From: Escherichia coli
GTDB lineage: Bacteria; Pseudomonadota; Gammaproteobacteria; Enterobacterales; Enterobacteriaceae
NCBI RefSeq assembly: GCF_002854065.1
Contig: NZ_CP024147.1
DNA length: 64,000 bases
Reading direction: 5' to 3' (one strand)
A program made the position numbers and the translations under genes. Positions within the stretch are counted from its first letter, which is position 1. The number at the start of each line of letters is the position of its first letter. The notes under the pieces were generated by a model. That model was not told where the DNA came from, searched no databases, and worked only from the letters and a program-made list of their open reading frames with translations. This document shows positions 59,066-60,467 of the stretch, in pieces.

Positions 59066-59739
59066 AGAGTAAAACTCATTAGGATTATCAGAATTCGGCC
59101 AATGCATTGCAAAAATGAAATACAAAGAGAGATGTGTGCAGGCGCTTAGCCGCGAGGGGCATGGCGAAGCCATACAGAAAGCACCAGCATTCAGAACTCC
59201 TGTGAAAGCGGCATAGTGCCGCTGCTCAGGAGTTTTGTTATGACCCGTATCGTGCTGAACGTTGCCACCCTATGATGCGATTAAAAAAACTCACCGTCGA
59301 GCCGATGATTGACGTCAATGCTATCGGATGATGCCGGGGGTGTTCCGGAAGGAATTCCTTGTTTCCCGAACTGTTACCAACAAAATTATAACGATGAGCA
59401 AGTAAAGACCGGTTGGTGGCAGTACTGACCGGTCTGTGATGGAAGATTAATTTCACCTTAAATCCTGGTGCTGTTAGGATGCTGACGTTTTTCGGCTACA
59501 CCATTCAGATTATGCAAATAAATATCCCTGAATATAATATATTCATAGCACCCATAACTCATCCTGGGCGATAACTAAACCATTTTTGAGTAACAAATGA
59601 AACAACTGCAACGCTCTTATTATTTCTGGAAAACGTCTCGCAAAAACAAAACAACATGCAGAAATCCGCTTTCGTTAATTAATTTTCCGGCGTAATTTTC
59701 GCACATACATTAATGAGTAATATATGTAAGGTGGTGGTA

Positions 59740-59958
59740 ATGGCGATGAATACGGTTTTTCTTCATTTATCAGAAGAGGCAATTAAACGGCTGAACAAGC
59801 TTCGGGGCTGGCGTAAGGTTTCACGATCTGCAATTTTACGCGAAGCGGTAGAGCAATATCTGGAACGTCAGCAATTTCCGGTACGTAAAGCAAAGGGAGG
59901 CAGGCAAAAGGGGGAGGTAGTTGGTGTTGATGATCAGTGTAAGGAGCATAAGGAATGA
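59740..59958 (+). CDS. yiiE: Ribbon-helix-helix (CopG-like) DNA-binding protein YiiE
   Basis: ORF 59713..59958 trimmed to MAMNTVFLHLSEEAIKRLNKL; 72 aa. Confidence 0.7.
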   Translation: MAMNTVFLHLSEEAIKRLNKLRGWRKVSRSAILREAVEQYLERQQFPVRKAKGGRQKGEVVGVDDQCKEHKE

Positions 59959-60199
59959 CAAAAATTTTTCATTCTTGAATATAAAAAAACAGATGCCCTT
60001 ATTCTGGTATTAATACAAGGCTGTTTTACTTGAACTTATAATAACTGCAACTGTTACATCATATCTGGAAAACGCCTCGCAAAAATAAAAAATGATGCGT
60101 AAATGAGCTTTCTTTAAAGATTCGACAAGGGTACTTTTCTCTCCATAGATATCAAATGATATTGGTCAAATATTTATGAACTCTCTGGCAGGTATTGAT

Positions 60200-60418
60200 A
60201 TGGACAGAATTATACTCGATTTATCGAATGAGGTGATTAAGCAACTTGATGATCTTGAGGTGCAGCGTAATCTTCCTCGTACGGAGCTATTACGGGAAGC
60301 GGTAGATCAATACTTGGTAAATCAATCGCAAACAGTAAGAACCAGTGCTTTTGGCATATGGCAAGGGCGTGAGGAAGATGGTGTCGAATACCAGCGTAAG
60401 CTGCGCGAGGAATGGTAA
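60200..60418 (+). CDS. yiiF: Ribbon-helix-helix (CopG-like) DNA-binding protein YiiF, paralog of YiiE
   Basis: ORF 60176..60418 trimmed to [19 protein letters not shown]; shares LREAV.QYL core with YiiE; 72 aa. Confidence 0.7.
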
Positions 60419-60467
60419 TGGGAAAAAATGATATCAATCAGATTGCTGACAACGTGTGCGTTGTTCA

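What the first reader, a model, noticed from the sequence alone, without database searches (positions are those of the whole stretch)
59580..60420. yiiE and yiiF form a tandem duplicated module: paralogous ribbon-helix-helix genes each preceded by a conserved upstream element
YiiE and YiiF are both 72 aa and share an RHH-like core (L.LS.E.IK.L then LREAV.QYL). About 60 to 100 bp upstream of each start there is a similar sequence block: aactgcaac ... tctggaaaacgtctcgcaaaaacaaaa at about 59601..59660 and aactgcaac ... tctggaaaacgcctcgcaaaaataaaa at about 60044..60100. This suggests duplication of promoter or operator plus gene, possibly autoregulated. Their position beside the AT-rich islet raises the question of whether they regulate or silence it.
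Basis: seen in the sequence. Interest (0 to 1): 0.4.

Follow-up and report, generated by a model that had tools for sequence, protein, structure and literature searches.

The report
Two orphaned VapB antitoxin genes
yiiE and yiiF are a real tandem duplication, but they are the surviving antitoxin halves of two VapBC toxin-antitoxin modules whose toxin genes have decayed, and the shared upstream block is an old, conserved piece of that operon's control region; this is an ordinary kind of genome decay that explains two uncharacterised E. coli genes.

Summary
Windows 59601-59700 and 60040-60139 are a 100-nt direct repeat (72% identical). Its core, TCTGGAAAACGYCTCGCAAAAAYAAAA, is 25/27 identical, against about 60% for the coding DNA. 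YiiE and YiiF are 42% identical RHH proteins.

In Citrobacter, Salmonella, Klebsiella and about ten other genera, the YiiF orthologue sits at the same fabY-fdhE site. There it is followed by an overlapping, intact PIN toxin gene. The K. pneumoniae pair is the solved VapBC complex 7BY2. Only 57 of 5426 complete E. coli genomes keep vapC. The window keeps only fragments of it after yiiF (60418-60711, split by a REP pair) and after yiiE (59955-60043).

The shared core ("block A") is conserved across genera and sits at a fixed distance from two promoter-like blocks. Its binder is unknown. It is not a sigma-54 promoter, a structured RNA or an ORF. It is probably not the RHH operator, which is more likely the palindrome at the -10/RBS.

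Nothing found here links the pair to the AT-rich islet. This is a new member of a known kind (orphan antitoxins), of modest interest.

The parts
59601..59700 (+). Copy 1 of the 100-nt direct repeat, upstream of yiiE. It includes the E. coli-specific left extension AACTGCAAC.
   Evidence: the repeat finder D1. The left extension is absent upstream of E. whittamii yiiE and in other genera.
59625..59647 (+). Block A1: TCTGGAAAACGTCTCGCAAAAAC. This is the conserved bipartite upstream element (TTCTGGAAAG-N3-CTCGCAAAAG in other genera). Its binder is unknown.
59693..59698 (+). Block B1: TAATTT, a -10-like hexamer of the form TAnnnT, phased with block A.
   Evidence: T and A are invariant in alignment A4. 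This is the second-best conserved promoter column in the PWM scan.
59708..59742 (+). Block C1: the yiiE-specific version of the -10/RBS block (CATTAATG palindrome, TAATAT, AAGGTGG Shine-Dalgarno, ATG). It is a candidate YiiE operator.
   Evidence: It aligns with block C of vapB but has diverged. It is conserved in E. coli and E. whittamii yiiE.
59740..59958 (+). yiiE, 72 aa. The RHH domain is under purifying selection and the C-terminal former toxin-binding tail has degenerated.
   Evidence: Pfam RHH_1, E 1.1e-11. Across five alleles, aa 1-52 show 1-7 synonymous and 0 non-synonymous codon differences, while the tail shows 0-4 synonymous and up to 9 non-synonymous. Annotation.
59955..60043 (+). 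Remnant of the PIN toxin gene that once followed yiiE. An ATG overlaps the yiiE stop, followed by CAGATGCCCTTATTCTGG (equivalent to PDAIILA) and TTGAACT.
   Evidence: DNA alignment A6 against intact E. coli vapC. The longer remnant in a B2 strain matches VapC aa 83-119 at E 1.5e-4. The window's own tblastn hit is weak (E about 1).
60040..60139 (+). Copy 2 of the 100-nt direct repeat, upstream of yiiF.
   Evidence: the repeat finder D1.
60064..60086 (+). Block A2: TCTGGAAAACGCCTCGCAAAAAT.
60132..60137 (+). Block B2: TACTTT, a -10-like hexamer.
60157..60178 (+). Block C2, degenerate: TGATATTGGTCAAATATTTATG where intact operons have TGATATACTGGAGGTATATATG. The extended -10, the inverted repeat and the GGAGG are all lost.
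   Evidence: Alignment A4. The PWM scan finds no strong promoter here in the window, unlike all intact loci.
60176..60418 (+). yiiF, an orphan VapB antitoxin (80 aa as annotated by PGAP, 72 aa from ATG 60200). The full toxin-binding tail [21 protein letters not shown] is retained.
   Evidence: 62% identical to K. pneumoniae VapB (= PDB 7BY2_A); 2K5J is YiiF itself. Orthologues are followed by PIN. dN/dS is 0.2-0.8 among orphan alleles vs 0.04-0.08 among intact vapB.
60418..60468 (+). 5' remnant of vapC. Its ATG overlaps the yiiF stop (TAATG).
   Evidence: Alignment A5 against intact E. coli vapC.
60469..60566 (.). Pair of inverted REP-like elements inserted into the vapC remnant. Present in the window and K-12, absent from the B2 allele and from the intact allele.
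   Evidence: Inverted repeat I9; alignment A5. The REP identity rests on my memory of the REP consensus.
60625..60711 (+). vapC remnants: IEAKQALAA (aa 19-29), then LEVVTRNTRD-GVVTPYEL plus stop (aa 102-124). About aa 30-101 are deleted.
   Evidence: tblastn E 2e-5 to 4e-5 for the C-terminal piece; alignment A5; coordinates.

Best explanation
The region is a decayed tandem array of a chromosomal RHH-PIN (VapBC-type) type II toxin-antitoxin operon that sits between fabY and fdhE in many Enterobacteriaceae.

Shown:
- An ancestral unit (block A, block B, block C, vapB, vapC) was duplicated in the Escherichia lineage.
- Both PIN toxin genes were then destroyed. The copy after yiiE is more decayed, which suggests it was lost first. 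The copy after yiiF was lost by an internal deletion, followed in this strain by a REP insertion.
- What remains are two solitary antitoxin genes, yiiE and yiiF, each with the ancestral control region.
It is a bipartite, about 24-bp DNA element kept at a fixed distance from the promoter-like blocks.

Inferred:
- In intact operons, transcription starts at the extended -10 TGATATACT (block C) and/or at the TAnnnT hexamer (block B).
- The VapB RHH domain, alone or with VapC, represses by binding the ATATAC-N5-GTATAT palindrome that overlaps the -10/RBS, as in other RHH antitoxins.
- Block A is an upstream promoter element, centred near -68 from block B and near -115 from block C. It is bound by something other than the RHH protein: a host factor or the RNA polymerase alpha subunit.
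- YiiF is a relic antitoxin under relaxed selection whose promoter/RBS block is already damaged in this strain.
- YiiE has lost its toxin-binding tail and changed its DNA-reading residues, but keeps a strictly conserved RHH domain. It probably survives as a small DNA-binding regulator with its own operator.
For: Synteny and intact partners. YiiF orthologues (60-76% identical) in C. freundii, S. enterica and a 'Serratia' contig lie between fabY (+/- an esterase) and fdhE. Each is followed by an overlapping 122-124-aa PIN ORF. The same holds in most of the 38 species-level loci retrieved, with PIN ORFs of 121-135 aa.

Experimentally characterised relatives. C. freundii VapC matches PDB 7BY2_B 'Ribonuclease VapC' at E 5e-65. 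The A3 profile matches 2K5J 'yiiF' and 7BY2_A. The structure is attributed to Kang et al. 2020, as cited in PMC11117207.

Remnants of vapC in the window and in other E. coli: tblastn and DNA alignments.

Intact vapC in E. coli. It is kept in 57/5426 complete genomes, directly after the yiiF-position gene and with yiiE upstream.

Block conservation. Blocks A, B and C are conserved, with a block-A-to-start length of 152-153 nt in nearly all genera. Conserved promoter-like columns fall at block C (mean score 9.2, 26/26 sequences) and at block B (5.7, 88%).

Selection. vapB has omega 0.04-0.08 and orphan yiiF 0.2-0.8. The yiiE RHH domain has 0 non-synonymous changes while its tail is nearly neutral. 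The YiiE tail diverges exactly in the conserved toxin-binding motif.
Against: - No transcription start, binding or toxicity data exist for these genes. Promoter and operator assignments rest on consensus scoring and comparative conservation only.
- Block A's function is not established. It could still be a second operator.
- YiiF scores below Pfam's RHH_1 gathering threshold (18.9 vs 20.5 bits), although its structure is solved as 2K5J.
- The yiiE-side toxin remnant in the window itself is weak (E about 1). It relies on the longer remnant in a B2 strain and on a DNA alignment.
- The dN/dS values come from a few short sequences.
- Block A also precedes a relE-nadS module in some strains, so it is not strictly a vapBC element.
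Confidence: 0.8

Rival explanations
1. Block A is the operator through which YiiE and YiiF (and ancestrally VapB/VapBC) repress their own promoters.
For: RHH antitoxins normally autoregulate (family knowledge). Block A is the best-conserved non-coding block and has two loosely similar halves, CTGGAAAG and CTCGCAAAAG, about 11-12 bp apart, which is a spacing RHH tetramers can use. Its spacing to the promoter blocks is fixed.
Against: Block A is unchanged upstream of yiiE although YiiE changed the three residues that align with CopG's DNA-contacting R4/T6/T8. The most divergent vapBC loci (Cedecea, Kosakonia, RIT693) keep the MGRI strand and block C but lack or have a degraded block A. Block A lies 57-125 bp upstream of the likely start sites, which is poor for occlusion. 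It also precedes relE-nadS, which has its own palindromic operator.
Confidence: 0.2
2. yiiE and yiiF are dedicated regulators or silencers of the neighbouring AT-rich islet (ORF 57218-59065).
For: Adjacency only. The region is AT-rich (33-44% GC). yiiE is reported as H-NS-bound and SlyA-responsive (PMC5797941).
Against: The pair is near-universal in E. coli (5382 and 4718 of 5426 genomes), whereas the islet-containing query is mostly covered in 974, and K-12 lacks it. The orthologous module in other genera is a TA operon without the islet. Neither block A nor the yiiE block-C motif occurs near the islet ORF.
Confidence: 0.03
3. Block A is a sigma-54 (-24/-12) promoter: TGGAAAG-N4-TCGCA has the GG-N10-GC spacing.
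For: The spacing is correct, and variation is confined to the spacer between the two conserved halves. glnAp2 also has TCGC at -12.
Against: A PWM built from 50 ChIP-supported sites scores block A at 2.9-5.3 bits, against a minimum of 7.9 and a median of 15.7 for known sites. Between 174 and 418 window positions score as well as block A. The same PWM ranks the real glnAp2 first in the window. No sigma-54 ChIP-seq or gSELEX site is reported at yiiE or yiiF in K-12 (PMC4591121, PMC8743547).
Confidence: 0.03
4. The upstream similarity is only a leftover of recent duplication or gene conversion between the two copies and has no function.
For: The E. coli-specific left extension (AACTGCAAC...) does look like homogenisation between copies. 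It is missing upstream of E. whittamii yiiE and aligns with the end of the decayed toxin gene.
Against: The core of block A is conserved across about ten genera while the flanks on both sides have diverged beyond recognition. It is more conserved than the coding sequence between the paralogues.
Confidence: 0.1

Closest known systems
Klebsiella pneumoniae VapBC (PDB 7BY2/7BY3; Kang et al. 2020, J Med Chem 63:13669, cited in PMC11117207)
   Same: It is the orthologous module at the same fabY-fdhE site (locus L036). Its VapB is 62% identical to the window's YiiF, with the same RHH N-terminus and the same GLWQxCEEDGxEYQRxLRxEW tail. The upstream blocks A, B and C are shared.
   Different: The window has no toxin, only about 50 codons of vapC in pieces. 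The antitoxin gene is duplicated. Block C of yiiF is mutated.
Orphan (solitary) antitoxins of type II TA systems, described in population surveys of E. coli and K. pneumoniae (PMC10790755, PMC7192599)
   Same: Antitoxin genes kept after toxin loss. They are abundant in E. coli, with suggested roles as regulators or anti-addiction modules.
   Different: Neither yiiE nor yiiF co-occurs with 'antitoxin' in any paper of the searchable library. Here the decay path is traceable base by base, and one copy (YiiE) has also lost the toxin-binding tail and changed its DNA-reading residues.
FitAB and other RHH-PIN systems; CopG/Arc/Mnt RHH repressors
   Same: An RHH N-terminal domain pairs with a PIN toxin, and a palindromic operator overlaps the promoter (family knowledge, from memory). 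CopG aligns to residues 11-51 of the A3 profile.
   Different: The sequence relationship is only remote (E 0.1-0.15 to CopG). The operator sequence differs. Nothing has been measured for this family's DNA binding.

Membership tests
Type II toxin-antitoxin system, VapBC (RHH antitoxin + PIN toxin) | Antitoxin with an N-terminal ribbon-helix-helix DNA-binding domain | tested here: met
   YiiE hits Pfam RHH_1 at E 1.1e-11. YiiF scores 18.9 bits, just below the cut-off of 20.5. YiiF itself is PDB 2K5J, and its orthologue is 7BY2_A 'CopG family'.
Type II toxin-antitoxin system, VapBC (RHH antitoxin + PIN toxin) | Intact PIN-domain toxin gene immediately downstream, with start overlapping the antitoxin stop | tested here: not met
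   In the window only fragments remain after yiiF (60418-60468, 60625-60711) and after yiiE (59955-60043). The feature is met in orthologous loci of other genera and in 57/5426 E. coli genomes. The window therefore holds remnants of the system, not a system.
Type II toxin-antitoxin system, VapBC (RHH antitoxin + PIN toxin) | C-terminal toxin-binding tail of the antitoxin conserved | tested here: inconclusive
   YiiF keeps the motif [21 protein letters not shown]. YiiE has GGRQKGEVVGVDDQCKEHKE, with W, Y and L lost and the final TGG changed to TGA. The feature is met for YiiF and not met for YiiE.
Type II toxin-antitoxin system, VapBC (RHH antitoxin + PIN toxin) | Toxin is a ribonuclease neutralised by the antitoxin; operon autorepressed by the complex | not testable with these tools
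   The only evidence is literature for the K. pneumoniae orthologue: the PDB name 'Ribonuclease VapC' and the citation.
Sigma-54-dependent promoter | GG and GC dinucleotides 10 nt apart within TGGCAC-N5-TTGCW, scoring like known sites and occupied by sigma-54 | tested here: not met
   The spacing is present, but the PWM score is 2.9-5.3 bits against at least 7.9 for 50 ChIP sites. No ChIP-seq or gSELEX site is reported at this position.
Structured cis-regulatory RNA (5' leader) | Conserved secondary structure with covariation | tested here: not met
   RNAalifold on 26 aligned sequences, from block A to the start codon, predicts 0 pairs.
SOS (LexA) regulon member | CTGT-N8-ACAG box in the promoter region | tested here: not met
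   There is no such box in window 56800-60700. It is present 73-74 nt upstream of block A in 30/34 loci of other strains and genera, next to a divergent esterase gene.

The most novel reading that the evidence does not exclude
Block A is a functional DNA site for an unidentified host factor that heads every small module in the fabY-fdhE hotspot. It precedes vapBC, yiiE and yiiF, and in B2 E. coli and K. spallanzanii also relE-nadS. Where the esterase is present, block A is locked at 73-74 bp from a LexA box and about 47 bp from the vapB -10-like block. On this reading the hotspot carries a fixed-geometry, possibly SOS-linked, control region shared by a divergent esterase and toxin-antitoxin modules. 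YiiE would then be a domesticated antitoxin with re-specified DNA recognition (R-L-D to T-F-H) that now regulates something other than a toxin operon.
Probability: 0.2. Interest if true: 0.5.

Novelty: new member of a known kind. Interest (0 to 1): 0.3.

Why it matters
YiiE and YiiF are still listed among E. coli K-12 'transcription factors of unknown function' (PMC9308461), and YiiF has a solved structure labelled 'uncharacterized' (2K5J). Seeing them as orphan VapB antitoxins gives both genes an origin. It predicts what YiiF can bind: VapC of the 1% of E. coli strains, and of the Citrobacter and Klebsiella strains, that keep it. It also warns against reading them as regulators of neighbouring genes.

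The locus is a clean natural series of toxin loss. Intact, internally deleted, REP-invaded, fused and fully deleted alleles all occur. One antitoxin is drifting and the other is kept under purifying selection on its DNA-binding domain only.

The unexplained, strictly phased block A is a small, testable cis-regulatory puzzle.

Tried and rejected
1. Sigma-54 promoter in block A. Rejected by PWM score, a positive control (glnAp2 ranks first in the window) and published ChIP-seq and gSELEX tables.

2. Structured 5' leader RNA. RNAalifold found no pairs.

3. Small upstream ORF across block A. A 32-codon ATG ORF exists upstream of yiiE (from 59598), but the yiiF copy has TAA TAA at the aligned start. 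A 9-codon ORF in some Citrobacter lacks a start codon, or ends elsewhere, in other genera (read). Rejected.

4. Wider regulon for block A. A metagenome scan with CTGGAAAGNNNCTCGCAAAA returned 120 stretches, of which 80 were examined. Six were vapB-linked and two relE-linked. The rest were unrelated matches, many inside recurring conserved sequences of other organisms. This was uninformative.

5. Homology to the lacI-end/lac promoter region (shared CTGGAAAGCGG and GTATGTTGTGTGGAA). Significant only in C. freundii (z 6.5) and about 0-3 in other genera, so coincidence.

6. Known-regulator consensus sites (CRP, FNR, IHF, Fis, PurR, TyrR, Cra, marbox, sigma-32, sigma-E), compared by eye from memory. 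None was convincing. These are leads only, not tests.

7. The simple sigma-70 scan of the window region found nothing useful. A PWM scan across orthologues was needed.

8. Anti-addiction role against plasmid-borne VapC. tblastn against 72,556 plasmid records found no close enterobacterial plasmid homologue. The two hits near 80% identity are a 5.4-Mb record, which by its size is probably a chromosome, and a 425-kb Citrobacter replicon.

9. Pfam and PDB sequence searches of the 615-aa islet ORF found nothing.

10. The K. pneumoniae VapBC paper could not be read because it is not held.
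Full report
**What is in the window.** The window is E. coli chromosome. A 4-kb query across the region (56800-60800) is 100% identical to strain 100416. The gene order is fabY (yiiD), an AT-rich islet with a 615-aa ORF (57218-59065), yiiE (59740-59958), yiiF (60176 or 60200 to 60418), then fdhE-fdoIHG on the other strand.

- 59601-59700 and 60040-60139 form a 100-nt ungapped direct repeat, 72% identical.
- The quoted core occurs exactly twice in 64 kb, with none expected by chance.
- The two non-coding regions align with z of about 19 against dinucleotide shuffles.
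- The core is 25/27 identical, while the coding DNA is only 59-61% identical.
- The proteins are 42% identical, E 2e-13.

**What the duplicated unit was.** Downstream of both stop codons there is an ATG overlapping the stop, followed by short stretches that read like PIN-domain sequence.

Orthologues settle the point. In C. freundii, S. enterica and a contig labelled Serratia, a protein 70-76% identical to YiiF lies at the same place, between fabY (plus a divergent alpha/beta hydrolase) and fdhE. It is followed by an overlapping 122-124-aa gene with a Pfam PIN domain.

A scan of one genome per species found 38 loci. In Citrobacter, Salmonella diarizonae, Klebsiella, Kluyvera, Lelliottia, Trabulsiella, Kosakonia, Cedecea, Franconibacter and others, the RHH gene is followed by an intact 121-135-aa PIN ORF.

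The C. freundii toxin matches PDB 7BY2_B 'Ribonuclease VapC' at E 5e-65. The antitoxin profile matches 7BY2_A and 2K5J ('uncharacterized protein yiiF'). The K. pneumoniae ATCC 13883 locus encodes the 7BY2_A sequence, which is 62% identical to the window's YiiF. That system was published as a VapBC toxin-antitoxin pair (Kang et al. 2020, cited in PMC11117207). I could not read the paper itself.

**The toxin remnants.**
- After yiiF, window 60655-60711 encodes LEVVTRNTRD-GVVTPYEL plus a stop. This is VapC residues 102-124 with a 15-nt deletion (E 2e-5 to 4e-5).
- 60625-60654 encodes IEAKQALAA, residues 19-29.
- A four-way DNA alignment shows the structure. The intact E. coli allele has 375 nt. 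A B2 strain keeps codons 1-29 fused to codons about 103-124. The window and K-12 have, in addition, a pair of inverted REP-like elements (60469-60566) inside the 5' remnant.
- After yiiE, the B2 strain keeps a stretch matching VapC residues 83-119 (E 1.5e-4).
- The window keeps less after yiiE, but CAGATGCCCTTATTCTGG (59990-60007) aligns with CCAGATGCCATTATTCTGG of vapC.

The duplication therefore included the toxin gene, and both toxins decayed afterwards.

Intact vapC survives in 57 of 5426 complete E. coli genomes. There it lies directly after the yiiF-position gene, with yiiE upstream, and RefSeq annotates it as a VapC family toxin.

**State of the two survivors.**

YiiF keeps the whole conserved tail ([20 protein letters not shown]). 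Its alleles differ with dN/dS of 0.2-0.8, against 0.04-0.08 between intact vapB genes of different genera. Many truncated variants exist in the protein collection.

YiiE is different. Across the window, K-12, a B2 strain, strain 2016C-3878 and E. whittamii, residues 1-52 show 1-7 synonymous and no non-synonymous codon differences. Residues 53-72 show up to 9 non-synonymous differences. Its tail has lost the conserved W, Y and L, and ends at a TGA where vapB has TGG.

The three beta-strand positions that align with CopG R4, T6 and T8 are R-L-D in VapB, R-I-D in this YiiF and T-F-H in YiiE. That those CopG residues contact bases is from my memory of the CopG-DNA structure.

These counts are small and should be treated as indications only.

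E. albertii and some E. coli carry a chimera with a YiiE N-terminus and a VapB tail. In E. whittamii the yiiF copy is deleted from inside block A to the 3' end of vapC.

**The upstream element.** Aligning about 30 orthologous upstream regions shows three conserved blocks in otherwise diverged DNA.
- Block A is ATTCTGGAAAG-N3-CTCGCAAAAG.
- Block B is GTGTAtnTTG, with T, A and T at the positions of a -10 hexamer.
- Block C is TGATATACTGGAGGTATATATG.

The distance from block A to the MGRILL start codon is 152-153 nt in nearly every genus.

A simple sigma-70 PWM applied to all sequences gives two conserved promoter-like columns. One is block C, an extended -10 (TGnTATACT; a perfect TGATATAAT in Cedecea), with mean score 9.2 in all 26 sequences. 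The other is block B, with mean 5.7 in 88% of sequences. The hexamer frequencies in that PWM were approximated from memory.

Block C also contains a perfect inverted repeat, ATATAC-N5-GTATAT. In more distant loci it contains instead a direct repeat, TGATATA-N6-TGATATA. It is the natural candidate for the RHH operator.

In the window's yiiF, block C is mutated to TGATATTGGTCAAATATTTATG, which loses the extended -10, the repeat and the GGAGG. It is intact in the E. coli strain that keeps vapC.

**What block A is not.**
- It is not a sigma-54 promoter, although it has GG-N10-GC. A PWM from 50 ChIP-supported sites scores it at 2.9-5.3 bits, against a minimum of 7.9 for known sites. Hundreds of window positions score as well. 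The same PWM ranks the true glnAp2 (48586-48602, upstream of glnA) first. Neither the sigma-54 ChIP-seq study nor the gSELEX study lists a site at yiiE or yiiF.
- It is not part of a conserved RNA structure. RNAalifold found 0 pairs.
- It is not a conserved ORF (read).
- It is probably not the RHH operator. It is unchanged upstream of yiiE despite YiiE's altered DNA-reading residues. The most divergent vapBC loci keep the MGRI strand and block C but not block A.

**What block A does show.**
- It is the leftmost conserved piece of the unit. In Trabulsiella and one metagenome contig it begins 9-20 nt after the fabY stop.
- Where the esterase is present, a LexA-type box (CTGT-N8-ACAG) lies 73-74 nt upstream of block A in 30 of 34 loci.
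- In a B2 E. coli, in K. spallanzanii and in three metagenome contigs, an extra copy of block A precedes a relE-nadS module inserted between the esterase and yiiE or vapB.

I conclude that block A is a selected upstream DNA element of this control region with an unknown binder. This part of the explanation is inference.

**The islet.** Nothing found here ties the pair to the AT-rich islet. The yiiE module is in 5382, and the yiiF module in 4718, of 5426 complete genomes. The islet-containing query is mostly covered in only 974, and K-12 lacks it. The region between fabY and yiiE is a variable hotspot that holds an esterase, relE-nadS, DUF6708 genes or this islet in different strains.

**Literature.** Both genes are treated as regulators of unknown function.
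- YiiF is listed among 58 uncharacterised TFs (PMC9308461).
- yiiE is 2.5-fold up on SlyA overexpression and flagged as H-NS-bound (PMC5797941).
- An RpoS SELEX site lies between yiiD and yiiE. By my coordinate conversion it is about 630 nt upstream of block A (PMC5493296).
- No paper in the library contains both 'yiiF' and 'antitoxin'.
- Orphan antitoxins as a class are well described in E. coli (PMC10790755).

**Verdict.** The finding is real but has an ordinary explanation. It adds a new, well-documented member to a known kind, with one small open question (block A).

Noticed in passing
L005 2812-2827; L002 3532-3547; L047 2316-2331 (absent from window 56800-60700): A LexA-box-like palindrome (CTGT-N8-ACAG/CCAG) lies 73-74 nt upstream of block A in 30 of 34 loci from many genera. 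It sits about 17 nt from the start codon of a divergent Abhydrolase_3 esterase (Pfam E 1e-69). This predicts an SOS-regulated esterase next to the TA modules.
   Followed up: partly
window 57218-59065 (motif at 58745-58768): The 615-aa islet ORF has no Pfam family and no PDB sequence relative. It contains CKSAKDRT, a CX5R(T) phosphatase-type motif that I recall from SopB/IpgD-like inositol phosphatases. PGAP splits the identical sequence into a 'hypothetical' pseudogene and a 'transposase'.
   Followed up: partly
window 48586-48602 (- strand): TTGGCACAGTTTTCGCT, 84 nt upstream of glnA (47093-48502, - strand), is the best sigma-54 PWM hit in the whole window. It corresponds to glnAp2 and served as a positive control. 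A second good hit at 62140 (-) inside fdoI matches the published intragenic site IS47.
   Followed up: yes
L002 3602-3622, 5267-5284, 7576-7593; L028 919-936 and 2392-2409: Block A occurs three times in a B2 E. coli and twice in K. spallanzanii. The extra copy precedes a relE-nadS module, which has its own GTACGTCA-ATGACGTAC palindrome and a TATAAT. Each small module in these arrays of the fabY-fdhE hotspot therefore begins with block A.
   Followed up: partly
L028 2501-2812; L047 2800-2900; L091 5066-5330; window 60418-60711: vapC has been inactivated independently in several lineages. These are an in-frame VapB-VapC C-terminal fusion in K. spallanzanii, a deletion from block A to the vapC 3' end in E. 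whittamii, an N-terminally deleted vapB in a metagenome contig, and an internal deletion plus REP insertion in E. coli. In the E. coli, E. whittamii and K. spallanzanii alleles the last ~20 codons of vapC, next to the terminator shared with fdhE, are kept.
   Followed up: partly
window 59581-59602 and 59708-59729: A 22-nt motif (CATTWWTGAGTAAYAWATGWAA, 17/22 identical) occurs twice in the yiiE upstream region, on either side of block A1. The second copy overlaps the -10/RBS block. It could be a YiiE operator pair or chance. The upstream copy also aligns with the decayed toxin remnant.
   Followed up: partly
proteins P0212 (E. albertii) and P0097: These are natural chimeras with the YiiE N-terminal RHH domain joined to the VapB/YiiF toxin-binding tail. 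The junction is at the shared LREAVDQYL segment, as expected from recombination between the tandem copies.
   Followed up: no
window 60030-60420: yiiF alleles are unusually diverse within E. coli. Most complete genomes are only 90-95% identical to this window's allele, which is identical to that of O157:H7 strain TR01.
   Followed up: no
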